This document shows, piece by piece, positions 12,987-21,630 of a stretch of DNA of 24,000 nucleotides. Position 1 is the stretch's first letter, and each line of letters begins with the position of its first letter. The translations under genes were made by a program, and so were the position numbers. This DNA is from Lysobacterales bacterium (GTDB taxonomy: Bacteria > Pseudomonadota > Gammaproteobacteria > Xanthomonadales > Ahniellaceae): positions 5,349-29,348 of the forward strand of contig JBFXKH010000025.1 of assembly GCA_050173995.1 (NCBI GenBank). Reading direction: 5' to 3'. The notes under the pieces are model-generated. The model worked only from the letters and a program-made list of their open reading frames with translations. It did not search any database and had not been told where the DNA came from.

Positions 12987-13187
12987 ATGGTCCAAAAGGC
13001 AGCCGTATCAAGTGGGAAGCAGCTATGGTCATGCGTCAAAAGTTCTACCAAGCGCCTCATCGCGTTTTGGGAGGCTCACCTTCCTTACAGGCAAAGCCTG
13101 CTGATGAGCTTGTGCAACTCAAGCGAAAAGGCCCTGAGATTGCTGCCTAACAATTCGTTCAAGGCGGACGCCTCCGGCGCCGCTTAA
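12987..13187 (+). CDS. hypothetical small protein (cassette 1)
   Basis: AAAGGAGG at 12971-12978 sits 8 nt before ATG 12987. The 66-aa product is MVQKAAVSSGKQLW.... The C-terminal codons (LPNNSFKADASGAA) are encoded by the attC itself. A longer in-frame start at 12876 would add a hydrophobic N-terminus but lacks an SD. Confidence 0.45.
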   Translation: MVQKAAVSSGKQLWSCVKSSTKRLIAFWEAHLPYRQSLLMSLCNSSEKALRLLPNNSFKADASGAA

Positions 13188-13201
13188 CTCAAACGTTAGG
13201 C
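13145..13201 (+). repeat. attC site 1 (57 bp)
   Basis: GCCTAAC aattcgttcaaggcggacgcctccggcgccgcttaactcaaac GTTAGGC. R'' (RYYYAAC) and R' (GTTRRRY) flank an imperfect internal palindrome. Closely resembles the aadA-type 59-base element as I recall it. Confidence 0.85.
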
Positions 13202-13216
13202 CACTATGGAGGCCAT

Positions 13217-13582
13217 GTGATCACCATAAAGACAGGAAGATTCGACGTCCTAGAAACCAAGACGCTACTTATTCCTGGCCTGGGCGAAACCAAGATTACG
13301 ATCAATCATGGCATTGAAGAAATTTCGTTCATCTTTGATTTTCGTATCGATGATAAATCGGAGCAGCAGCTCAACTATGAGTTGGTAGATGATCAACAGC
13401 TCCGCATAGTACTTATAAATTGGGGTGGCCCTTTCCCCACAACTCCTATTGAGCCGGTTCCAGTAGGAACAATTGGCAACAGAGAACTCTTTATTCTTTT
13501 TTCAGCTGCTAAGGCGGGAGACAAGGCGGAGATTCGCCAGCTAACCTTTACGGCCCTCCTGGGGGAGGTCGCAAATGGCTAA
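13217..13582 (+). CDS. hypothetical 121-aa soluble protein (cassette 2, gene 1)
   Basis: GTG at 13217 lies 4 nt after GGAGG (13208-13212). The sequence alternates hydrophobic and polar residues and looks beta-rich (ITIKTGRFDVLETKTLLIPGLGETKITINHG...LRIVLINWGG...). I recognise no family. Lower GC than the surrounding core DNA. Confidence 0.65.
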   Translation: MITIKTGRFDVLETKTLLIPGLGETKITINHGIEEISFIFDFRIDDKSEQQLNYELVDDQQLRIVLINWGGPFPTTPIEPVPVGTIGNRELFILFSAAKAGDKAEIRQLTFTALLGEVANG

Positions 13583-13841
13583 GTTGGTCGTACGTACGAG
13601 CGTTTCGGCTCCTACTGAAATCAACATCCCGTTGATCCGTGCGGATCATGCACACACCTCCCATGTATTCAGAACCTGCTTCGAAGTCTCTCTCTCTATC
13701 TTTTCAACTCTCCTAGGCTACGTGTTGGGCCTCTCAAGTACCATTCGCATCCATTGGGTGTTTCTCGGCGTATTTGCGCTTGCCACACTCGCATTTCTCG
13801 CTCTCTCTTACAGAGCTAGCAGCACTGCAAAAGTGGCCTAA
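13575..13841 (+). CDS. hypothetical 88-aa membrane protein, two predicted TM helices (cassette 2, gene 2)
   Basis: The ATG at 13575 overlaps the upstream stop (ATGGCTAA, 8-nt overlap). Hydrophobic stretches are FEVSLSIFSTLLGYVLGL and IHWVFLGVFALATLAFLAL. The stop TAA lies inside the R'' box of attC 2. Confidence 0.6.
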   Translation: MAKLVVRTSVSAPTEINIPLIRADHAHTSHVFRTCFEVSLSIFSTLLGYVLGLSSTIRIHWVFLGVFALATLAFLALSYRASSTAKVA

Positions 13842-13892
13842 CTATTCATTCAATCCGACGCCTTTGGCGCGGCTTAGCTCAAGACGTTAGCT
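13836..13892 (+). repeat. attC site 2 (57 bp)
   Basis: GCCTAAC tattcattcaatccgacgcctttggcgcggcttagctcaagac GTTAGCT. Its R'' GCCTAAC is complementary to the TTAGGC that starts this cassette at 13196. Confidence 0.85.
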
Positions 13893-13896
13893 GTCA

Positions 13897-14745
13897 ATGA
13901 GAGGTTCTCAGCACATGGATAAACAGCAGGCACTAGATCAGCTGGACAAGTTCAAACATCGTCTGGTCGCTGATGTGGCAGGTGCGTACGCGCAGCGTGG
14001 CTCTGACTTTGGGCGAGAGCGCTTTGCTGCTTGGCGACGCCAGATCGATAAGTTCCTAGACGAGAATCTTCCCGGCGCACGCGCAATGCTGGACAAAAAA
14101 TTGGACCACGGCGTCTTCTTTCGTGGCAGATCAGAGGGCGACTATGATGTATTCATGCGCGAGGATGGAGGGCCATCTTTGGCATTAATCGACTCTCTTT
14201 GTTTAGACATCAAGAATGACGAGTACGATTTTTCACGAGAAGTACCCCATCAGAACGCTGCTGAAACAAAAAAAGCAAGGAAATCTGCCCCAGAGAATTC
14301 AACTCGAGTATTCATTGTCCACGGTCATGATGAAACTTTAAAGACAAAGGCGGCGCGGTTTGTTGAAAAGTTAGGGTTAAAAGCGGTAATTCTTCATGAG
14401 CAGGCCAATCAGGGCCATACAATTATTGAGAAAATTGAGGCGCACACAGATGTAGGGTTCGCAATCGTTCTATACACACCAGATGATGCTGGTAGCACCC
14501 AGGCAGAAGCCAAAGCTGGAACACTGAAGCCAAGAGCAAGGCAAAACGTCGTTTTTGAACACGGCTACCTCATCGCCAAACTTTCACGGGCAAGAGTAGT
14601 TCCTCTGGTGGCAGCAAAATTAGAACTTCCAAGCGACATTAGCGGTGTCGTTTACGTGGACGACACGAACTGGCAAATAGATATTGCAAAGGAAATGAAA
14701 GCCGCTGGCTACAGTATTGACTTCAATAAGCTAGTTGACAGCTAA
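13897..14745 (+). CDS. TIR-like domain protein (CAP12/PycTIR-type, COG4271-like) with uncharacterised N-terminal helical domain
   Basis: The C-terminal ~140 aa read RVFIVHGHDETLKTKAARFVEKLGL..VILHEQANQGHTIIEKIE...GFAIVLYTPDD...ARQNVVFEHGYLIAKLSRARVVPLV...ELPSDISGVVYV. This matches the bacterial TIR-like family, including the conserved Glu (E221, codon 14557-14559). The N-terminal ~135 aa have no motif I recognise. An alternative start is ATG 13915. The stop TAA lies in the R'' of attC 3. Confidence 0.82.
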   Translation: MRGSQHMDKQQALDQLDKFKHRLVADVAGAYAQRGSDFGRERFAAWRRQIDKFLDENLPGARAMLDKKLDHGVFFRGRSEGDYDVFMREDGGPSLALIDSLCLDIKNDEYDFSREVPHQNAAETKKARKSAPENSTRVFIVHGHDETLKTKAARFVEKLGLKAVILHEQANQGHTIIEKIEAHTDVGFAIVLYTPDDAGSTQAEAKAGTLKPRARQNVVFEHGYLIAKLSRARVVPLVAAKLELPSDISGVVYVDDTNWQIDIAKEMKAAGYSIDFNKLVDS

Positions 14746-14799
14746 CAAGTCATTCAAGCCGACGCCGCTTCGCGGCGCGGCTTAATTCAGGCGTTAGGC
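14740..14799 (+). repeat. attC site 3 (60 bp)
   Basis: AGCTAAC aagtcattcaagccgacgccgcttcgcggcgcggcttaattcaggc GTTAGGC. Its R'' AGCTAAC is complementary to the TTAGCT that starts this cassette at 13887. Confidence 0.88.
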
Positions 14800-15040: not shown

Positions 15041-15221
15041 TGCGCTGATGGTCTGAACCGTTCGCCGGTTTGTCCTTTCCGTCATCTGACGCCACCGCGC
15101 CAGGCAAAAAGTGGACCGCCGACTGCCGTCCCTCCAACTGCCGTCCTCCGTCGATCCAAGGGCCGCGCTATGATTTTGGCTGCACGGCCGCTGCCTTGGG
15201 GATTCGTAGTTGTAGCGGCTT

Positions 15222-15282
15222 GGTTCGACCTTTCGCTCAAGCCGACGCCGCTTCACGGCACGGCCCACTTCAGGCGTTCGCC
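15222..15282 (+). repeat. degenerate attC-like element A
   Basis: ggttcgacctttcgctCAAGCCGACGCCGCTTCACGGCACGGCCCACTTCAGGC GTTCGCC. The central palindrome and a GTT-type R' box are conserved. The R'' position reads GGTTCGA, not RYYYAAC. Confidence 0.4.
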
Positions 15283-15288
15283 ACCACC

Positions 15289-15436
15289 ATGCAGGTCTCC
15301 GGCATCTGTCATTTCAATCTGCGAGCGCCGCGCGAGCTGCTCGATTCTCTGCGCGACTTCTACTGAGAGGTCGTTGGCCTTTCGGTCGGCGTTCGCCCGG
15401 CGTTCTCCAGCTTCGGCTACTCGGCAGCAAGGACGT
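15289..15436 (+). pseudogene. truncated duplicate of the VOC/glyoxalase gene
   Basis: MQVSGICHFNLRAPRELLDSLRDFY is followed by a stop at 15364-15366. Nucleotide homology to 16479-16636 continues past the stop with an ~11-nt deletion, then is lost at ~15437. Confidence 0.75.
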
Positions 15437-15519: not shown

Positions 15520-15732
15520 TTATGCAGCGATGTCGATGTACTCAACTACACTGGCAGGCGCCGGAATCGGCATTCCGTCTTCACGCAACCCGGCGATGTG
15601 AAAGGCGATGGCCTCCCGGATATCGCGCTCTACGTCAGCCACCGTCGCGCCGGTTGCTATGCAGCCCGGAAGGTCGGGGACATAGGCGGAATAATTGCCC
15701 GGGGCTTGCTCAATCACTACGGCAAAACGCAT
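15520..15732 (-). CDS. hicB: HicB-family antitoxin (short, UPF0150-type)
   Basis: MRFAVVIEQAPGNYSAYVPDLPGCIATGATVADVERDIREAIAFHIAGLREDGMPIP is the canonical HicB N-terminal domain. It starts 5 nt downstream of the hicA stop codon. Confidence 0.85.
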   Translation of the reverse strand: MRFAVVIEQAPGNYSAYVPDLPGCIATGATVADVERDIREAIAFHIAGLREDGMPIPAPASVVEYIDIAA

Positions 15733-15737
15733 CGGGT

Positions 15738-15938
15738 CTACCTCTTCAGGCCAGCCTGCTTAAGGATGCTGTCGATTGTACCAGCGCCAAGGTCATCGCT
15801 GGGTTTTCCGGCAACCGTGACCCGGCCAGGCTTCGCAGGATGTTTGAACTGCCTATGGCTACCGCGAGTTGCCACCAAGACCCAGCCATCGTCCTTGAGG
15901 CGACGCAGAACTCCGCTGACTTTGGCGGTTGGCGGCAC
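15738..15938 (-). CDS. hicA: HicA-family mRNA interferase toxin
   Basis: VLRRLKDDGWVLVATRGSHRQFKHPAKPGRVTVAGKPSDDLGAGTIDSILKQAGL carries the HicA signature, including GSH-x-F-x-HP. The GTG start at 15938 lies 7 nt after GGGAGG. Confidence 0.85.
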   Translation of the reverse strand: MPPTAKVSGVLRRLKDDGWVLVATRGSHRQFKHPAKPGRVTVAGKPSDDLGAGTIDSILKQAGLKR

Positions 15939-16033
15939 CCAGGAACCTCCCTATCGAAAACCTATCGTCCGGCATCGCCTGCGGGCGAAAGCCGGTAAAG
16001 GCCGCAGTCGCTGGTCGGAGGCACGCAGTTGTT

Positions 16034-16225
16034 GGACGAAGCCGTTACGCGGAGGAAGCCTACTGCGGCACCTGTTCGGTCAGGATGATACATCGCCGCC
16101 ACGGTCGGTGGATCGCCAAAATCAGCGGCTGTGGTGATCGGTGGAACCCAGACGCGCTGGCGCTTGCTGCGCCAAGATACTGGCCCATGGAGTGCGTCGC
16201 TGCGCGCCGCTTGGTCTGAACCGAT
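16034..16225 (+). repeat. ~190-bp dispersed element, copy 1
   Basis: Aligns by eye at about 70-75% with 18957-19146 (ggacgaagccg.tacgcgga..aagcc..actgcggc.cctgt..gg..aggatgatac...). In both places it abuts the 5' side of a minus-strand toxin module. Confidence 0.55.
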
Positions 16226-16636
16226 CGCCGGCTCGACCCGATTCCACCGTTCCGGCCAAAACGTGGTTGTCCAACTGCCGTCTGTTGTCCGACTGCCGTC
16301 CTCCGACTGCCGACTGCCGTCCCGCCAACTGCCGTCCTCCATCGATCCAAGGGCCGCGGTATGATTTTGGCTGCACGGCCGCTGACTTGGGGTTTGGTAT
16401 TTTTCGCGGCTGGTTCGATCTTCCGTCCAAGCCGACACCGCTTCACGGCACGGTCCACTTCAGGCGTTTGCCACCACCATGCAGGTCTCCGGCATCTGTC
16501 ATTTCAATCTGCGCGCCCCGCGCGAGCTGCTCGATGCTTTGCGCGATTTCTACTGCGACATTGTTGGCCTTTCGGTTGGCGCTCGCCCGGCGTTCTCCAG
16601 CTTCGGCTACTGGCTCTACGCCGGCAGCAAGGATGT
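16201..16636 (+). repeat. direct repeat copy B (~436 bp)
   Basis: Partner of 15041-15436. It contains a longer heptamer run (16270-16345), attC-like element B, and the 5' end of the intact VOC gene. Confidence 0.8.
16412..16472 (+). repeat. degenerate attC-like element B
   Basis: ggttcgatcttccgtcCAAGCCGACACCGCTTCACGGCACGGTCCACTTCAGGC GTTTGCC, which ends 6 nt before the VOC ATG. Confidence 0.4.
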
Positions 16637-16889
16637 CCTTCATCTCACCGAGGCGCGGCCAGGCGAGCAGCGCTGCACGGGCCGTGCCGCAACTTTCGAT
16701 CATGTTGCGTTCGCCTGCACCGATGCTGCCGCCTACCGGGTCAGGCTGCAGGCAGCCGGCATCGCCTTCACCACCGATACCGTTCCAGGCACGGGCCAAC
16801 TGCAGATGTTCTTCACCGATCCCGCCGGCAATGGCGTCGAAATCAATTTCGCCGGGTCGGCTGACGCCTCCGTCAGAGCAACCGTGTAG
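16479..16889 (+). CDS. VOC family protein (glyoxalase/bleomycin-resistance/dioxygenase fold)
   Basis: 136 aa. ICHFNLRAPRELLDALRDFYCDIVGL...FDHVAFAC.D......RL...GI.F........G..QMFFTDPAGNGVEINF is the typical paired beta-alpha-beta-beta-beta VOC pattern. Confidence 0.85.
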   Translation: MQVSGICHFNLRAPRELLDALRDFYCDIVGLSVGARPAFSSFGYWLYAGSKDVLHLTEARPGEQRCTGRAATFDHVAFACTDAAAYRVRLQAAGIAFTTDTVPGTGQLQMFFTDPAGNGVEINFAGSADASVRATV

Positions 16890-17292
16890 GCGGGCGAGGC
16901 GCGTCGGGACGGGTCGGCTGCAACGGATGGCTGGCCGCCTGCCGCGCCAGCACGAAGCCCTCGCCGGATTCGGAATTCACTGGCAACAGCGCACGAGCCG
17001 CGAGCACTTGCGCGACAAGAATGTTTGGAATGGCGGCGCGGCCTTGCCGCCACGGCTTGGCAAGCGTGGGCGGGAGCCAGGTAACCTTTGGCGCAAGAGC
17101 GAGCTGATCGAGTTCAAGTGCAAGCGGTTGCTCGTCGGCGGAGAAGAACGCCGAAGCAACCTGCGCACTGTCGTCGGCAGCGTTGACGTGGACACAGTCA
17201 TCACGACGGTCAGCGGCGCAGCGCGGTAGCACCCCGGTTGCGAGTGCAACCTGCCAATCGGAAAGCGATGTAATGCGAAAAATCGAAGACAT
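16873..17292 (-). CDS. DUF952-like protein
   Basis: MSSIFRITSLSDWQVALATG....CVHVNAADDSAQVASAFF....PLALELD resembles the DUF952 pattern (I-x-H/R-I...W...G...FIH-S...Q......F). The 3' end overlaps the convergent VOC gene by 17 nt, and the C-terminal extension may be spurious. Confidence 0.5.
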   Translation of the reverse strand: MSSIFRITSLSDWQVALATGVLPRCAADRRDDCVHVNAADDSAQVASAFFSADEQPLALELDQLALAPKVTWLPPTLAKPWRQGRAAIPNILVAQVLAARALLPVNSESGEGFVLARQAASHPLQPTRPDAPRPPTRLL

Positions 17293-17304
17293 GGGATGCG
17301 CGGC

Positions 17305-18144
17305 CTAATGTCTAATCGCAGCGGTGGGTTTGCCAGAGCATCGTACTGCAAGCGCGCCGGTCTTCTGGACCTGCCCTGGTGGCCCACACCGGCCGTCGTC
17401 GAGGAATTGCGAGATCAGCGTGCCGATCCTGGACTGTAGCTCGGTGGGGCCATGGTCGTTCATGTCGTTATGACGGGCGCCGGCGATTGCCGTGATACAC
17501 GTGCCGGCATTCGCTTCCTGCGCTGTGGGTAGAACACCAGGGTCCGCCTCGAAGTCGCTGCCACGAATCGACAGGACTTTGATCGACCGGCTCCGGGGAA
17601 GCGGGTATCTGCGATGGTCGAGCGTGACCAGCGCCGTCGCAAGCGCAGGAGACCGATGTACGAAAAGGGCCGAAATGTCTCCCCCGTTCGAGTGGCCGAC
17701 CAGCGTTAACCGAGACCAGTCAAAGCCAGTGTGTGTACGGGACAGGGCGTCACGCACGAAGTGAAGATTCTCGACGCCACGATGCCACGCCGGCATGCGA
17801 CTGGCGAATAGGTCGCCGGACCTGCTTAGCGGGGCGTCGGTAGGCAGGTCGTGTTGAATGGCCACAACCAGGTAGCCAGATCGTGCCAGTGTGGCGGCGA
17901 CAAACGAGTAGTCAGTGTGGCGCAGGCCATAGCCAGGGCTTAGCAAAGCGACCGGGCATGGCCTGTCACGGATGCAGTCGTGCGGACGCGCCGGGAAATA
18001 AACTGCGATCGGAATGTGCCGGTCACGGCTTGCATCCCATAGCTCGGCCGACTCGGTAAGTCTTGAACCGCCCGCAGCTGTGGTTGCGCAGGCCACCAAA
18101 GCGACCAGCACCAGCAGTGTCGCAAATCTCATCAGTGCTTTCAT
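17305..18144 (-). CDS. alpha/beta hydrolase lipoprotein
   Basis: The signal peptide has a lipobox (LLVLVALVAC). The nucleophile elbow is LVGHSNGG, and a late ARHNDM supplies a probable catalytic His. 279 aa. Confidence 0.8.
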   Translation of the reverse strand: MKALMRFATLLVLVALVACATTAAGGSRLTESAELWDASRDRHIPIAVYFPARPHDCIRDRPCPVALLSPGYGLRHTDYSFVAATLARSGYLVVAIQHDLPTDAPLSRSGDLFASRMPAWHRGVENLHFVRDALSRTHTGFDWSRLTLVGHSNGGDISALFVHRSPALATALVTLDHRRYPLPRSRSIKVLSIRGSDFEADPGVLPTAQEANAGTCITAIAGARHNDMNDHGPTELQSRIGTLISQFLDDGRCGPPGQVQKTGALAVRCSGKPTAAIRH

Positions 18145-18171
18145 GGGGGCTGAGAGTTGAAGTTTTGTCGC

Positions 18172-18516
18172 TCAGGGCGACAACGCCAGCACCAGCCGCA
18201 GGCCTTCATCGACTTGTGACATGGCCTTGCCGGAGAGCGACCTGACTTTGGACGCGAGCAAAGCGCGATCCAAGGTGATGAGTTGCGAGACGTTGATTAC
18301 CGAGGCTCTCGGCAACCCCGATTCGGACCTGGCCAAACGCACATTGCCCGGTGCCGCTGCCAAGGCCAGGTTGGACGTGACGACAGCCACGATGACGGTC
18401 CCTATGCGACTTTCATTGAATGCCTGCGATTGCACAACCAGCACCGGACGTCGGAAGCCTGGATCGGAGCCGGTAGCTGCAGGCAGCGACGCCCACCACA
18501 ACTCACCACGCTTCAT
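18172..18516 (-). CDS. mazF: MazF/PemK-family toxin endoribonuclease
   Basis: MKRGELWWASLPAATGSDPGFRRPVLVVQSQAFNESRIGTVIVAVVTSNLALAAAPGNVRL....GLPRASVINVSQLITLDRALL is the canonical PemK/MazF pattern. ATG at 18516; the track's TTG at 18522 is less likely. Confidence 0.88.
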   Translation of the reverse strand: MKRGELWWASLPAATGSDPGFRRPVLVVQSQAFNESRIGTVIVAVVTSNLALAAAPGNVRLARSESGLPRASVINVSQLITLDRALLASKVRSLSGKAMSQVDEGLRLVLALSP

Positions 18517-18531
18517 CTGCAACCGAACTCG

Positions 18532-18870
18532 TCAGGCTGCATCTGCGGGCGTGCGCAAGAACCCCACTGCAATGGCAAAGACCACGGTCAACAGCAGTAC
18601 CTCGGCCAACCCGGCGCCAGCCACCAGCAGAAGCGTTCTCGCTTCCTCCTCCGCGACTATCGATAGTTTCGTCAGCTCCTCAATCCCAACCAAGATAAGA
18701 AACAGCAGAACGTATAGCAACACGGGGATGATCGAATAAAAGAAGAACAACCAAGCTGCCTTGAATCTGCGCATCACGCCGCTGCGCACTTGTCCGATCT
18801 GTCGCGCGAAGACGCCGACCGGCACCAGGATGATCGACCAGAATAGCAGCGACAGCAAATGCTCTCTCAT
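18532..18870 (-). CDS. hypothetical 112-aa membrane protein with three predicted TM helices, in the antitoxin position upstream of mazF
   Basis: ATG at 18870 lies 4 nt after AGGAGG. The hydrophobic segments are LLSLLFWSIILVPVGVFA, AAWLFFFYSIIPVLLYVLLFLILVGI and TLLLVAGAGLAEVLLLTVVFAIAVGFL. Its stop lies 15 nt before the mazF ATG. Local GC is lower than the flanks. Confidence 0.6.
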   Translation of the reverse strand: MREHLLSLLFWSIILVPVGVFARQIGQVRSGVMRRFKAAWLFFFYSIIPVLLYVLLFLILVGIEELTKLSIVAEEEARTLLLVAGAGLAEVLLLTVVFAIAVGFLRTPADAA

Positions 18871-18905
18871 CCGGCCTCCTGGGTACACCAAGTAGTGGCT
18901 TCGCA

Positions 18906-18958
18906 GCCCGACGCCTGAGCCAAGCCGCGAAGCGGCTGCGGCTTGAATGAACCGCTGG
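18906..18958 (-). repeat. attC-like element in reverse orientation
   Basis: The minus strand reads ccagcggTTCATTCAAGCCGCAGCCGCTTCGCGGCTTGGCTCAGGC GTCGGGC, which parallels attC 3 (..GTCATTCAAGCCGACGCCGCTTCGCGGCGCGGCTTAATTCAGGC GTTAGGC). The boxes are degenerate. Confidence 0.4.
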
Positions 18959-19146
18959 ACGAAGCCGCTACGCGGACAAAGCCCCACTGCGGCGCCTGTG
19001 CGGCGAGGATGATACCTCTCCCCCACGGCCGATGGCTGGCCAAGGCAACAACGGATGGGGCGATCGGCGGAACCCGGCTGCGCTGGCGTTGGCTGTGCCC
19101 AGGTGCGGACCTTTGGAGTGCGGCGCTACGCGCCGCTTTGGATGCT
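18957..19146 (+). repeat. ~190-bp dispersed element, copy 2
   Basis: Partner of 16034-16225. Its 3' part forms the left arm of the 19111-19204 palindrome. Confidence 0.55.
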
Positions 19147-19204
19147 CTACTGGCAGCGACTGACGCAAAGCATCCAAAGCGGCGCCGAGCGCCGCACGCC
19201 AAAA
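19111..19204. repeat. long imperfect palindrome (~36-bp arms, 22-nt loop)
   Basis: A perfect 17-bp core pairs GCGCCGCTTTGGATGCT (19130-19146) with AGCATCCAAAGCGGCGC (19169-19185). The arms extend through gtgcggcgct/agcgccgcac (19118-19127 / 19188-19197) and ctttgg/ccaaa, with small bulges. Confidence 0.8.
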
Positions 19205-19367
19205 TACCCGCCGGTGCCGATGGGCTCGAACACATCGGCACCGCGCTCGATGTGGGCCATTGCGGCGGTCTGGTCGCTGCATGTGCCATGCCCGACCAGG
19301 CCAGCTGTGGGCCTGTGTGAGTGCCCGCAGTGCCCCAATCAACGACCACACCACCAACCTACGGTCC

Positions 19368-19389
19368 GGATCGTGGCCGCGCACGATCC
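19368..19389 (-). terminator. candidate stem-loop downstream of the XRE gene
   Basis: GGATCGTG-gccgcg-CACGATCC lies 12 nt past the stop codon. There is no U-tract, so function is uncertain. Confidence 0.25.
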
Positions 19390-19400
19390 AAGCCTATTCG

Positions 19401-19655
19401 TCAGGCGGCTGAATCCAGTTGCCAGCCGGGAAAAGCAAGAACCGCCGGGTGGCAATGCAGCGCAGCGCCCAACACCTTGGCACGCTCTACGCCCAAATTG
19501 ACCCGACCCGTTTCGATGCTGGAGATGGTTGTTTGTGGGATGCCGCAAAGCGCGGACAGTTCATTCTGGCTGAGCCCCTGCAGTTCGCGAATGATGCGAA
19601 CGGACTCGCCAGGCGTAACGTCGACGCGCTTTTTGGCTGGAATTGGTTTGCTCAT
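19401..19655 (-). CDS. XRE-family helix-turn-helix protein (HigA-like antitoxin/regulator)
   Basis: ATG at 19655 lies 7 nt after GGAGG. IRELQGLSQNELSALCGIPQTTISSIETGRVNLGVERAKVLGAAL is a canonical XRE HTH. 84 aa. Confidence 0.8.
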   Translation of the reverse strand: MSKPIPAKKRVDVTPGESVRIIRELQGLSQNELSALCGIPQTTISSIETGRVNLGVERAKVLGAALHCHPAVLAFPGWQLDSAA

Positions 19656-19656
19656 T

Positions 19657-19842
19657 TCAGCGCCTCCGATAGTCATGAGCTGTGACACGCGCTACTTGAA
19701 CGACCATGACGCCAGCCTTGATCCGGAGGCTTGCGATGCTGCGATCAATGCGCTTGATTTGTCGAAGCGCTGATGAGCGCTGGACCCCCACATAGCGCGT
19801 CGCGTCGGTTTCCGGAAGACGCGCACCACTCTCGTCACCCAT
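19657..19842 (-). CDS. hypothetical 61-aa ORF translationally abutting the XRE gene (possible small toxin or decayed RelE/HigB-like gene)
   Basis: Its stop TGA ends 1 nt before the XRE ATG. The segment SSALRQIKRIDRSIASLRI loosely recalls the N-terminal A-x-K-x-L-K-K-L-D helix of RelE/ParE toxins. The ORF is too short for a full RelE fold. Confidence 0.3.
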   Translation of the reverse strand: MGDESGARLPETDATRYVGVQRSSALRQIKRIDRSIASLRIKAGVMVVQVARVTAHDYRRR

Positions 19843-19867: not shown

Positions 19868-20476
19868 TTACCGTTGTGCATACCGAGTGGCCAACGCGCA
19901 TAAATGTTTGCGTGTGCGCGCAAGACTCGGGGAACGTTGCGCCGCCCGAGTCGGGGACCACTGGGTACGAACCATCTCGCAAAGTCTGGCGTTATATCCC
20001 AGCCCCTGCGAGGCAATGGCGTTTCGTCGCACCACTAAATCTTCGCGTACTGCACGATGCGCCTTTTCCGCGATTCCCAACAATGTTCGTTTCGGGTCGC
20101 TCAGGCCATCGGGATTCTCGGGCAGGGAGCGGATACGCGTTCCCATCAGGGTGCGCAACCCCTCGTGATCGGCAATGATCCATGACTCGATTTCCCGCAC
20201 TGCCACCCTGAACACCAGTCCTGCTGGCTGCGCAATATCTTGCAGCCAATTGGCAATCAGTGTCGGCGCACATTTGGATTGGTCGAGATCGGTGATAAGG
20301 AACACGGGTTCATGCGCTGCCATCCGACAGAAGTTTCCGATGCGGCTCCGCAGGTACCCCGATCCACCTCGTCGAAGGCATTGGTGCGCGTGCAACCCCA
20401 CTTCAGCGGCGAGACAAAGCCCCACCTGCTCGCTGAGCTCATCTTCGGTTGCGAGCGTGATCCCACTCACTGCCAC
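19868..20476 (-). CDS. DUF4276-like protein (Toprim-like fold, putative nuclease partner of the ATPase)
   Basis: About 200 aa. The motifs ITLATEDELSEQV (acidic N-terminal strand), PVFLITDLDQSKCAPTL (DxD-like), FRVAVREIESWIIADHEGL and NPDGLSDPKRTLL match my recollection of DUF4276 proteins. The GTG start at 20476 or 20470 overlaps the ATPase stop by 10 or 4 nt. Confidence 0.65.
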   Translation of the reverse strand: MAVSGITLATEDELSEQVGLCLAAEVGLHAHQCLRRGGSGYLRSRIGNFCRMAAHEPVFLITDLDQSKCAPTLIANWLQDIAQPAGLVFRVAVREIESWIIADHEGLRTLMGTRIRSLPENPDGLSDPKRTLLGIAEKAHRAVREDLVVRRNAIASQGLGYNARLCEMVRTQWSPTRAAQRSPSLARTRKHLCALATRYAQR

Positions 20477-21630
20477 AGCCCCAGCTGCGCTGCCGCGCTG
20501 GGACGGGCCTTTGGAAGCACTACTTCGGCAACAGACAGCCCGCTCAGCAACGCGCTGCTTTCCCTTTCGTCAAGGACGCGCACAACAGTTCCCTCGGGCG
20601 CCGCCACCAGCAACAGGACGCCGCGTCCATCTATGCCCGGATTGCTCAGCAATGCCTCACTGTGCGTACTGATAAAAACCTGCCTCGAACGGCGTTTTTT
20701 ATCGCGCTGAATTCGTTGCAGCAGAAGTGGGATTTGGCGAACGATTGCATCATTCAGCGACAACTCGGGCTCTTCGAGGAGCAACAGAGAGTCCCCTTCG
20801 AGGAGCACCCACAACAATCCAAGGAGGCGCAAAGTTCCGTCCGAGAAGTGTTCCTCGCGCTGCCAGCCTGCGTTGGGCCGATGGTGTGCGTAACGGGCCT
20901 CCAAGTGTGGCCTTCCGCTAACTTTATCCGGTGTGAATCGAAGTTCTACGAATTGCGGGACGGCCAGTTTCAAGGCTTGCCCGATCTTCTTCAAGCGCGA
21001 CTCGCGCGCGCGATCCTGGGTCTTGGCAACACGCTCCAAGAAGCCTTGGCCGAACGGATCATCCTCGAGTAATTTTCCACCGAGCTGATCGGCGTACTTG
21101 AGTAACTGCGGGACTAGATGAAGATATGTTGCCTCGCCAAAAAATTCGGCAATTGCTCGAAACTTCGCGTTTGCCTGGATCTGCTCCAACGCGGTCTGTG
21201 TCAGCCGCATTGGATCCTTCTTGTCGGTCTTCGGGTTAGGCCGATCCAGCAGGAGCTTGCCACCGCGAAAGACTTGCTCAACGGAGATGAGAGTGCGCTG
21301 CGCGCCCTTTCCCTCAGGCTTGAATCCCAACACATATCGCCACGTCTCGGCCCCATCCTCAGCGCTGTCGGCAAGATCCACCTCGATCCGAACTTCGGGA
21401 TCTTTGCGCGCATGCAGGCAACGTAGTTTTTGGATTCCACCTCGATCATGGATCGCTTTTTGCAATCCACCACCATGCGGCTTGCAAACATCGCGCAGGA
21501 ATCGGAATACATCCAAAAAATTGGACTTGCCCGACGCATTTGCCCCAAGCAGGTACGTGCGCTCATGCAGCGGCACGTCCACGGCGCGAAAGTTGCGCCA
21601 GTTCTTGAGCTTGAGATGGGTCACTATCAT
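20467..21630 (-). CDS. ABC-type AAA ATPase (AAA_15/AAA_21-like, OLD/AriA/GajA/PtuA-type head)
   Basis: MIVTHLKLKNWRNFRAVDVPLHERTYLLGANASGKSNFLDVFRFL contains Walker A. FSDGTLRLLGLLWVL is signature-like, DSLLLLEEPELSLN is Walker B, and VFISTHSEALL is the H-loop. GGAG lies 10 nt upstream of the ATG at 21630. Confidence 0.85.
   Translation of the reverse strand: MIVTHLKLKNWRNFRAVDVPLHERTYLLGANASGKSNFLDVFRFLRDVCKPHGGGLQKAIHDRGGIQKLRCLHARKDPEVRIEVDLADSAEDGAETWRYVLGFKPEGKGAQRTLISVEQVFRGGKLLLDRPNPKTDKKDPMRLTQTALEQIQANAKFRAIAEFFGEATYLHLVPQLLKYADQLGGKLLEDDPFGQGFLERVAKTQDRARESRLKKIGQALKLAVPQFVELRFTPDKVSGRPHLEARYAHHRPNAGWQREEHFSDGTLRLLGLLWVLLEGDSLLLLEEPELSLNDAIVRQIPLLLQRIQRDKKRRSRQVFISTHSEALLSNPGIDGRGVLLLVAAPEGTVVRVLDERESSALLSGLSVAEVVLPKARPSAAAQLGLWQ

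What the first reader, a model, noticed from the sequence alone, without database searches (positions are those of the whole stretch)
18172..18870. MazF-family toxin whose upstream partner is a 3-TM membrane protein instead of a MazE/RHH/AbrB-type antitoxin
**Seen in the sequence**
- The MazF/PemK ORF is unambiguous.
- The position where the antitoxin normally sits holds a 112-aa ORF. It is upstream, on the same strand, and only 15 nt separate its stop from the mazF ATG.
- That ORF has a good SD and three long hydrophobic helices, with no DNA-binding-looking segment.
- The 15-nt gap leaves no room for another gene.
- Downstream, the next gene (a lipoprotein hydrolase) starts only 27 nt after the mazF stop.

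**Inference (three alternatives)**
- The membrane protein is a non-canonical antitoxin or sequestering partner.
- mazF is an orphan toxin controlled in trans.
- The cognate antitoxin was replaced by recombination, which the adjacent attC-like relic would support.
Basis: partly seen in the sequence, partly recalled or inferred. Interest (0 to 1): 0.65.

Follow-up and report, generated by a model that had tools for sequence, protein, structure and literature searches.

The report
Orphan mazF left by antitoxin deletion
The MazF toxin gene is real and intact, but the membrane-protein gene in front of it is an unrelated integron cassette that ended up there when a deletion removed the toxin's normal antitoxin gene, so this is a broken toxin-antitoxin module and not a new kind of pair.

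Summary
On the minus strand, a full-length MazF/PemK gene (18516..18172) lies 15 nt after a 112-aa, three-helix membrane ORF (18870..18532) and 27 nt before a lipoprotein hydrolase. No other ORF could encode an antitoxin.

The "partner" reading fails.
- The membrane ORF belongs to a conserved family. Its homologues (11 metagenome loci and L007) are almost all single-gene integron cassettes with their own attC, and none of the loci examined has a MazF nearby.
- Of 80 MazF relatives, 78 have a ~78-aa ribbon-helix-helix antitoxin gene overlapping the mazF start. The other two are truncated mazF fragments. None has the membrane ORF.
- The window keeps only the last 8 codons plus stop of that antitoxin (SSVADEAW*, 18529..18503). 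These are fused directly to the R'' core (GCCTGAC) of the membrane cassette's attC.

A deletion therefore removed the rest of the attC, the mazE promoter/operator and about 70 mazE codons.

The same junction occurs in a strain about 3% diverged, so it is one inherited event and not an artefact.

How the cell tolerates the intact toxin is untested. The candidates are silence, loop substitutions (P14A, G18D) or an antitoxin in trans. Low interest.

The parts
18172..18516 (-). mazF (MazF6-like PemK/MazF endoribonuclease toxin), 114 aa, full length, now without a cis antitoxin
   Evidence: Pfam PF02452 hit at E 7e-26 over the full length. PDB MazF6 5hk0 at E 3.5e-29. 37 of 38 columns conserved at 85% or more are retained, including R22, R23, P24 and T47, S48, N49.
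18503..18529 (-). Remnant of the ribbon-helix-helix antitoxin gene (mazE-like): last 8 codons plus stop, SSVADEAW*, overlapping the mazF start by 14 nt. It has no start codon and is not translatable on its own.
   Evidence: The frame translation matches the C-termini of relatives' antitoxins...FKSVADEAW* in L109-L111, QSSVLDDEAW* in L030 and QSASIADEAW* in L044. Nucleotide homology to mazEF loci starts at 18526. No ORF of 20 aa or more exists in this frame.
18531..18537 (-). R'' core (GCCTGAC, one change from GCCTAAC) of the membrane cassette's own attC, containing the ORF's stop codon. This is the deletion junction; the rest of the attC is missing.
   Evidence: blastn homology to the L007-L010 cassette ends exactly at 18531. 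Homologous cassettes continue as CCTAACCGCCCAGTCAACGCGGACGCGCG...GTTAG.
18532..18870 (-). 112-aa three-helix membrane protein of unknown function; a former single-gene integron cassette unrelated to mazF
   Evidence: 20 homologues at 50-98% identity with 19 invariant columns. Three hydrophobic segments. Cassette structure in L007 and L096-L106.
18906..18951 (-). Degenerate attC upstream of the membrane cassette. R' has decayed to GTCGGGC (18912..18906) and R'' is lost.
   Evidence: It is the inverted match to the plus-strand attC at 14750-14782 (I2). The sequence is shown. Cassette homology to L007 starts at 18908, inside R'.
17305..18144 (-). Lipoprotein with weak alpha/beta-hydrolase similarity, 27 nt downstream of mazF; not found next to any MazF relative
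   Evidence: Sub-threshold Pfam hits to Hydrolase_4, PETase and others. tblastn against the 80 MazF loci found nothing.
16873..17292 (-). DUF952 protein, last gene of the minus-strand block. Its 3' end overlaps the convergent glyoxalase gene.
   Evidence: Pfam PF06108; ORF map.
13145..13201 (+). Intact attC (GCCTAAC...GTTAGGC), first of the plus-strand cassette array
   Evidence: Pattern scan plus fold, -24.4 kcal/mol; sequence.
13836..13892 (+). Intact attC (GCCTAAC...GTTAGCT)
14740..14799 (+). Intact attC (AGCTAAC...GTTAGGC). The stop codon of the TIR cassette gene lies in R''.
15237..15283 (+). Degenerate attC (R' GTTCGCC, no R'')
16427..16473 (+). Degenerate attC (R' GTTTGCC, no R'') in front of the glyoxalase gene

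Best explanation
**Shown.** The locus is a decayed toxin-antitoxin module inside a rearranged, partly degenerate integron cassette array. The ancestor was a MazEF6-like type II module. It had a ~78-aa ribbon-helix-helix antitoxin gene whose last 14 nt overlap the mazF start, preceded by its own promoter/operator. That module sat next to an unrelated one-gene cassette encoding a small three-helix membrane protein.

A single deletion had one end at the R'' core of the membrane cassette's attC and the other about 24 nt before the end of the antitoxin gene. It removed:
- the rest of the attC;
- the mazE promoter/operator;
- about 70 of 78 mazE codons.

This left the membrane ORF 15 nt from an intact mazF. 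The membrane protein is therefore a neighbour by accident, not a partner.

**Inferred.** The orphan mazF is tolerated for one or more of these reasons:
- It is barely expressed. It lies in an inverted block of promoterless cassettes, no sigma-70-like promoter was found, and it has no Shine-Dalgarno of its own.
- It is attenuated by two lineage-specific substitutions in the beta1-beta2 loop (P14A, G18D).
- It is neutralised by a paralogous RHH antitoxin elsewhere in the genome.
For: 1. **Relatives carry an antitoxin.** An HMM of the RHH antitoxin hits the 450 nt upstream of 78 of 80 MazF relatives. The two exceptions are truncated mazF fragments. The window gives no hit (ORFs).
2. **A remnant survives.** The window keeps SSVADEAW* in the overlap frame. 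The nearest antitoxin-bearing relatives (MazF 87-88% identical) end in ...KSVADEAW*. Nucleotide homology to them begins at 18526.
3. **Homology stops at R''.** Homology to the membrane cassette of L007-L010 runs from R' (18908) to the last base of R'' (18531) and then stops. Eleven further homologous loci show the ORF, almost always followed by a conserved attC, which the window lacks. None of them has any MazF-like sequence.
4. **The native promoter is gone.** The conserved promoter/operator motif GGTCATACCnnGGTGATACC upstream of the relatives' mazE is absent.
5. **No shared neighbours.** The membrane ORF, the hydrolase and DUF952 are absent from all 80 MazF loci.
6. **One inherited event.** The junction is identical in a lineage about 3% diverged at the same chromosomal locus (L107/L108).
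7. **Array context.** There are three intact and at least three degenerate attC sites, plus duplications and an inverted block.
8. **No promoter detected.** No sigma-70-like promoter was found in 16800-19500.
9. **Lineage-specific residues.** A14 and D18 occur only in the orphan lineage. P14 is present in 61 of 64 relatives and in all nine nearest antitoxin-bearing ones.
Against: - mazF is still full length with its catalytic-type residues, and stayed so across about 3% divergence (3 synonymous and 4 conservative non-synonymous changes). This is unexpected for a useless or harmful gene. However, seven changes are too few to separate selection from chance.
- The reason for tolerance is not established. 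No expression data exist, and the rest of the genome could not be searched for a trans antitoxin.
- The ancestral arrangement (membrane cassette directly beside mazEF) was not observed in any sequence. More DNA than the minimum may therefore have been lost.
- The promoter scan is a crude consensus search.
Confidence: 0.88

Rival explanations
1. The membrane protein is a non-canonical antitoxin or sequestering partner of MazF, either originally or recruited after the deletion. It would hold the toxin at the membrane or block it.
For: - The spacing is tight (15 nt), the strand is shared, and the membrane ORF has a strong Shine-Dalgarno, so translational coupling to mazF is conceivable.
- The pair has persisted with both ORFs intact in two lineages about 3% apart.
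- The membrane ORF's stop codon (TGA followed by C) is in frame with mazF, so read-through would give a fusion protein.
Against: - There is no co-occurrence outside this one orthologous locus: 0 of 80 MazF relatives and none of the contexts of membrane-ORF homologues.
- The membrane family is conserved as a stand-alone cassette.
- An antitoxin remnant proves that a conventional partner once existed.
- By the positive-inside rule, the cytoplasmic parts would be only a basic 17-residue loop and an 8-residue tail. MazF antitoxins, in contrast, insert an acidic tail into the toxin's basic groove (established knowledge of MazE-MazF complexes).
Confidence: 0.03
2. mazF is an active orphan toxin kept harmless mainly by a cross-reacting RHH antitoxin from a paralogous mazEF locus elsewhere in the same genome. 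This is a specific version of the tolerance step of the main explanation.
For: - The toxin looks intact.
- Genomes with two loci of this same MazF clade exist among the relatives: OY969566.1 carries L026 and L028, and CAVQPK01 carries L065 and L066.
- Cross-neutralisation among MazE/MazF paralogues and orphan toxins related to paralogous toxins are described in PMC7354431.
Against: - There is no antitoxin-like sequence anywhere in the 24-kb window.
- The rest of assembly GCA_050248935.1 could not be searched.
- The orphan-specific loop substitutions and the lack of a promoter offer simpler reasons for tolerance.
Confidence: 0.3
3. The juxtaposition is an assembly chimera at a repeat (attC), not a real genomic arrangement.
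For: The region is rich in repeats, and several short contigs break at the same point, window 19141.
Against: - The identical junction is present in an NCBI assembly and in six Logan contigs from six different runs, including variants with 0.3-3% divergence.
- The junction lies inside unique sequence, not inside a repeat.
Confidence: 0.01

Closest known systems
MazEF6 of Mycobacterium tuberculosis (MazF6 endoribonuclease with its antitoxin MazE6); the wider RHH-antitoxin/MazF type II modules
   Same: - The toxin is most similar to MazF6 among solved structures (E 3.5e-29, about 50% identity over 110 residues).
- Relatives of the window's toxin carry a ~78-aa antitoxin with weak RHH_1/RHH_5 matches whose 3' end overlaps mazF.
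   Different: - Here the antitoxin gene and its promoter/operator are deleted. Only 8 codons plus the stop remain.
- The toxin carries A14 and D18 in the beta1-beta2 loop, residues not seen in any relative.
- The RNA target and the activity were not tested.
Toxin-antitoxin cassettes in chromosomal integrons (for example the Vibrio superintegron; Sci Adv 2024, PMC13108822)
   Same: - mazEF relatives of this clade occur as attC-bounded cassettes: L020 has an attC on both sides, and L029 has a Xanthomonas-type attC downstream.
- The window's array also holds a HicAB pair in inverted orientation.
   Different: Functional TA cassettes keep both genes and their own promoter. This one has lost the antitoxin, the promoter and any attC of its own, so it cannot work as an addiction or stabilising module.
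Orphan (solitary) toxins and degraded TA loci, as reviewed in PMC7354431
   Same: It is a toxin gene without an adjacent antitoxin, derived from a canonical pair and closely related to toxins of intact modules.
   Different: Here the breakpoint is resolved to within about 3 nt and coincides with the R'' core of an attC. Among 79 full-length members examined, it is the only one without the antitoxin.
CALIN / decaying chromosomal integron arrays (IntegronFinder paper, PMC4889954)
   Same: It is a cluster of attC sites, some degenerate, with cassettes of unknown or defence function. No integrase was detected in the window.
   Different: Part of the array (about 16873-18951) is inverted relative to the intact attC sites. 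An intI gene beyond the window cannot be excluded.

Membership tests
Type II MazEF toxin-antitoxin module | Toxin of the PemK/MazF fold family | tested here: met
   PF02452 at E 7e-26 over the full-length profile. PDB MazF6 at E 3.5e-29.
Type II MazEF toxin-antitoxin module | Conserved catalytic and substrate-binding residues retained | tested here: met
   37 of 38 columns conserved at 85% or more are kept, including R22, R23, P24 and T47, S48, N49. The exceptions are P14A plus the unusual D18 and Q31. Activity itself was not tested.
Type II MazEF toxin-antitoxin module | Adjacent cognate proteic antitoxin gene (RHH or AbrB type) in the same operon | tested here: not met
   The antitoxin HMM gives no hit upstream. 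There is no ORF of 20 aa or more. Only an 8-codon 3' remnant survives.
Type II MazEF toxin-antitoxin module | Own autoregulated promoter/operator upstream of the antitoxin | tested here: not met
   The motif GGTCATACCnnGGTGATACC, conserved in relatives, is absent. No sigma-70-like site was found in 16800-19500.
   0 of 80 MazF loci contain the membrane ORF. No MazF lies near membrane-ORF homologues in L007-L015 or L096-L106. The only co-occurrences are the same orthologous locus.
   This needs co-expression and interaction assays.
Integron gene cassette (membrane ORF) | One promoterless ORF starting just after an R' (GTTRRRY) and followed by its own complete attC (R''-L''-L'-R') | tested here: not met
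   Homologues meet it. In the window the 5' R' has decayed to GTCGGGC, and only R'' (GCCTGAC) of its attC remains. It is therefore an immobilised former cassette.
Integron array / CALIN | Two or more attC sites in a cluster | tested here: met
   Three intact attCs (13145-13201, 13836-13892, 14740-14799) and at least three degenerate ones.
Integron array / CALIN | Integron integrase (intI) next to the array, which separates a complete integron from a CALIN | tested here: inconclusive
   ORFs at 11.2-12.9 kb gave no Pfam or NCBIfam hit. Pseudogene fragments and sequence beyond the window were not examined.

The most novel reading that the evidence does not exclude
After the deletion disarmed the module, the small membrane protein, or a TGA read-through fusion of it with MazF (the two ORFs are in frame, five codons apart), took over control of the toxin. 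This would happen through translational coupling and membrane sequestration, creating a new membrane-tethered MazF system that explains why the intact toxin persists.
Probability: 0.03. Interest if true: 0.7.

Novelty: new member of a known kind. Interest (0 to 1): 0.15.

Why it matters
It matters mainly as a caution. Tight, same-strand spacing next to a toxin gene does not make a gene its antitoxin. Comparison with relatives shows here that the spacing is a deletion scar.

Two minor points of interest remain:
- It is a well-resolved example of how a TA cassette decays inside an integron array, with one breakpoint at the R'' core of an attC.
- It is an intact MazF6-like toxin lacking its antitoxin, the only such case among 79 full-length relatives examined. 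It carries two lineage-specific loop substitutions that could be tested as natural attenuating mutations.

Tried and rejected
- **Overlapping small antitoxin ORF.** I searched for one in all frames of 18495-18905 and found none.
- **Antitoxin elsewhere in the window.** tblastn with four RHH antitoxins gave only noise (best E 0.09). An HMM search of the upstream region gave no hit.
- **Family assignment for the membrane ORF.** Pfam, NCBIfam and PADLOC gave none.
- **Rfam.** A scan of the window at gathering thresholds found nothing.
- **intI.** ORFs left of the array gave no hits.
- **Strict attC scan.** An R''/R' pattern-plus-fold scan recovered only the first attC. The others were located by repeat analysis and by eye.
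- **SNP pattern as a test of selection on mazF.** L005 has 0 changes in mazF against 19 in the flanks. L107 has 3 synonymous and 4 non-synonymous changes. The numbers are too small to decide.
- **XRE/HTH gene at 19401-19688 as an antitoxin.** Rejected. It lies 530 nt away beyond repeats and is replaced by other genes in the related strain L107.
- **IntI-mediated origin of the junction.** The breakpoint at R'' is suggestive, but normal cleavage is at R'. A 3-nt microhomology (GCC) with the antitoxin's Ala-Gln codons would equally fit illegitimate recombination. This is left open.

Full report
**1. What is in the sequence**

The genes in the finding lie on the minus strand.
- mazF runs from ATG 18516 to its stop at 18172 (114 aa).
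  - It matches Pfam PemK_toxin over the whole profile (E 7e-26).
  - Among solved structures it is closest to M. tuberculosis MazF6 (E 3.5e-29).
- Fifteen nucleotides upstream, a 112-aa ORF ends (ATG 18870 to TGA 18532).
  - It has an AGGAGG Shine-Dalgarno sequence.
  - It has three hydrophobic segments, separated by a basic loop (residues 22-38) and an acidic loop (63-78).
  - It has no hit in Pfam, NCBIfam or PADLOC.
- Twenty-seven nucleotides after mazF, a 279-aa lipoprotein with weak alpha/beta-hydrolase similarity begins (18144..17305). A DUF952 gene follows it.
- No other minus-strand ORF of 20 aa or more that could encode an antitoxin exists between 18495 and 18905.

**2. The setting is a decaying integron cassette array**

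- The window is about 66% G+C, but 12.4-22 kb is lower.
- That stretch holds three intact attC sites on the plus strand: 13145-13201, 13836-13892 and 14740-14799.
- It also holds degenerate attC sites at 15237-15283 and 16427-16473.
- One degenerate attC lies in inverted orientation at 18951..18906, directly upstream of the membrane ORF. Its R' box has decayed from GTTAGGC to GTCGGGC.
- The array shows duplications: 15114-15421 is 91% identical to 16305-16611, and 16033-16212 is 78-89% identical to 18956-19138.
- Its cassettes are typical of such arrays:
  - a TIR protein (PDC-S35);
  - a DUF6864 protein;
  - HicAB;
  - a glyoxalase.
- No integrase was detected in the window.

**3. The membrane ORF is a real gene, but an independent one**

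- It has 20 homologues at 50-98% identity. All are about 112 aa, and they share 19 invariant columns.
- In L007 (82% identical) and in nearly all of eleven metagenome loci (62-69% identical) it is a textbook single-gene cassette.
  - A GTTAGGC box lies about 40-50 nt before the ATG.
  - The stop codon TAA is embedded in the R'' core GCCTAAC.
  - A conserved attC follows: CCTAACCGCCCAGTCAACGCGGACGCGCG...CGCGCGCCGGTTACTGGGAACGTTAG.
- In two Burkholderiales metagenome-assembled genomes it sits in other contexts, for example 5 nt after a PBP1C-type penicillin-binding-protein gene.
- None of these loci contains any MazF-like sequence.

**4. MazF relatives have a conventional antitoxin**

- Eighty loci encoding relatives (43-79% identical) were fetched from species-representative genomes.
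- In most of them the ORF immediately upstream is a ~78-aa protein of this form: MKVAISLPDPVFEAAE.LA......RSQLYAEAL..YL...........LNAVY......VDPALA.AQ...L.DEAW.
  - It has weak ribbon-helix-helix Pfam matches.
  - Its last codons overlap the mazF start by 14 nt (or 1-4 nt in a more distant subgroup).
- An HMM built from 57 of these antitoxins hits the upstream 450 nt in 78 of 80 loci. The two exceptions are truncated mazF fragments. The window gives no hit.
- The relatives also share a promoter/operator motif (TTGC..GGTCATACCnnGGTGATACC) before the antitoxin gene. The window lacks it.
- Neither the membrane ORF, the hydrolase nor DUF952 occurs within 3 kb of any of the 80 loci.

**5. The scar**

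- In the window, the frame that overlaps the mazF start still reads AGT TCG GTT GCA GAT GAA GCG TGG TGA, which is SSVADEAW* (18529..18503).
- The nearest antitoxin-bearing relatives (MazF 87-88% identical, L109-L111) end in ...FKSVADEAW*.
- blastn homology to those relatives begins at window 18526.
- From the other side, homology to the membrane cassette of L007-L010 runs without gaps from 18908 (inside R') to 18531, the last base of R''. In the window R'' reads GCCTGAC. Homology stops there.

The two homologies therefore abut within about 3 nt. One deletion took out three things: the attC beyond R'', the mazE promoter/operator and about 70 of 78 mazE codons. The remnant has no start codon.

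The mechanism of the deletion stays open. It could have been an aberrant integrase event at R'', or illegitimate recombination using the GCC microhomology.

**6. It is inherited, not an artefact and not a mobile unit**

- The same junction is present in the NCBI assembly GCA_050248935.1 and in Logan contigs from six different runs.
- L005 differs by 19 substitutions and one deletion. L006 differs by 4 substitutions.
- L107 and L108 carry a MazF that is 96% identical and are 97-98% identical in DNA.
  - L107's left end matches the window's acyl-CoA synthetase flank (22026-21860).
  - The genes in between differ from the window's.
- This is therefore the same chromosomal locus in a related strain, not an independent occurrence of the pair.

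**7. State of the toxin**

- mazF is full length and keeps 37 of 38 columns that are at least 85% conserved among 64 relatives. These include R22, R23, P24 and T47, S48, N49. By alignment they correspond to the catalytic Arg and Thr of characterised MazF enzymes (established knowledge).
- Three residues are never seen in those relatives: A14 (Pro in 61 of 64), D18 (Gly or Glu in most relatives) and Q31 (Asn or Asp in nearly all).
- A14 and D18 lie in the beta1-beta2 loop and are shared by the window and L107. All nine nearest antitoxin-bearing relatives have P14 and G/S18.
- Between the window and L107, mazF shows 3 synonymous and 4 conservative non-synonymous changes. This is too few to infer selection.

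**8. How it most likely works**

*Shown:* mazF is the surviving half of an RHH-type mazEF module, and the membrane gene is an unrelated former cassette.

*Inferred:* the toxin is tolerated for one or more of these reasons:
- The block is poorly expressed. It consists of promoterless cassettes in an inverted segment, the crude scan found no sigma-70-like promoter, and mazF has no Shine-Dalgarno of its own.
- The loop substitutions weaken the toxin.
- A paralogous antitoxin acts in trans. Genomes with two loci of this clade exist among the relatives, and cross-reactivity is documented in PMC7354431.

The membrane protein is an unlikely antitoxin. By the positive-inside rule it would expose only a basic 17-residue loop and an 8-residue tail to the cytoplasm. 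MazF antitoxins, in contrast, insert an acidic tail into the toxin's basic groove (established knowledge).

**9. Comparison and verdict**

- The toxin is a member of the PemK/MazF family and is closest to MazF6.
- The locus fails the defining features of a type II module, because it has no adjacent antitoxin and no operator.
- It also fails the one testable feature of a new pair, which is conserved co-occurrence.
- It belongs with orphan toxins and degraded TA loci (PMC7354431), inside a CALIN-like decaying array (PMC4889954). TA cassettes in chromosomal integrons are well known (PMC13108822).

The second (control in trans) remains possible. The first (membrane antitoxin) is not supported.

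Interest is low (0.15). The residual curiosity is an intact MazF6-like toxin that has persisted without its antitoxin.

Noticed in passing
window 19868-21630 (-): The AAA_21/AAA_15 ATPase (21630..20467) and the overlapping DUF4276-like protein (20476..19868) match the PADLOC candidate defence system HEC-01 (HEC-01A E 2e-150, HEC-01B E 9e-56). An XRE/HTH gene (19688..19401) follows them. In the related strain L107 this whole block is replaced by other genes, including a T6SS Tdi1_C-domain protein.
   Followed up: partly
window 13897-14745 (+): A TIR-domain protein (Pfam CAP12-PCTIR_TIR at E 7e-37; PADLOC PDC-S35 at E 6e-80) is carried as an integron cassette. Its stop codon lies inside the R'' box of an intact attC (14740-14799). 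A DUF6864 cassette lies just upstream (13217-13582).
   Followed up: partly
window 15520-15938 (-): A HicA/HicB toxin-antitoxin pair lies inside the cassette array in the orientation opposite to the intact attC sites. It appears complete, judging from the gene calls and Pfam hits for the same assembly.
   Followed up: no
window 16033-16212 and 18956-19138; hairpin 19112-19203: A ~180-nt element occurs twice (78-89% identical). Read on the minus strand, it precedes both hicAB and the membrane cassette. The second copy runs into a near-perfect hairpin with 35-nt arms (91% complementary, 22-nt loop). Four of the short Logan contigs (L002, L003, L005, L006) break at 19141, inside it. Its function is unknown, and Rfam gave no hit at gathering thresholds.
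   Followed up: no
window 15114-15421 and 16305-16611: A ~308-nt duplication (91% identical) covers a degenerate attC plus the first ~130 nt of the glyoxalase gene. A truncated glyoxalase 5' end therefore sits in front of hicBA. This is further evidence of rearrangement in the array.
   Followed up: no
window 18517-18534 (-): The membrane ORF's stop codon is TGA followed by C. It is in frame with the mazF ATG, with five sense codons between them. Read-through would give a membrane-anchored MazF fusion. In homologous cassettes the stop is TAA inside GCCTAAC.
   Followed up: no
L011-L014 (5001-5339) and L015 (3567-3905): In two Burkholderiales metagenome-assembled genomes the membrane-ORF homologue is not called next to other cassettes. 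In L011-L014 it starts 5 nt after a PBP1C-type transglycosylase/transpeptidase gene that follows an alpha-2-macroglobulin gene. In L015 it follows a PpoB2/DUF1326 pair. This may hint at the chromosomal origin and an envelope-related role for this cassette gene.
   Followed up: no
L016-L044, about 20-45 nt upstream of the antitoxin ATG: The RHH-mazEF relatives share a conserved upstream motif, TTGC...GGTCATACCnnGGTGATACC(A/G)T. It is probably the promoter with the antitoxin's operator, made of two ATACC repeats.
   Followed up: no
window 18475-18463 (-) (MazF residues 14 and 18): A14 and D18 in the beta1-beta2 loop are found only in the antitoxin-less lineage (the window and L107). All nine nearest antitoxin-bearing relatives have P14 and G/S18. 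They are candidate natural attenuating substitutions.
   Followed up: partly
L005 versus window 16977-17271: One Logan variant of the locus has a 295-nt deletion that removes most of the DUF952 gene. It also has 14 substitutions in the hydrolase gene, most of them non-synonymous. This suggests relaxed constraint on the genes downstream of mazF.
   Followed up: partly
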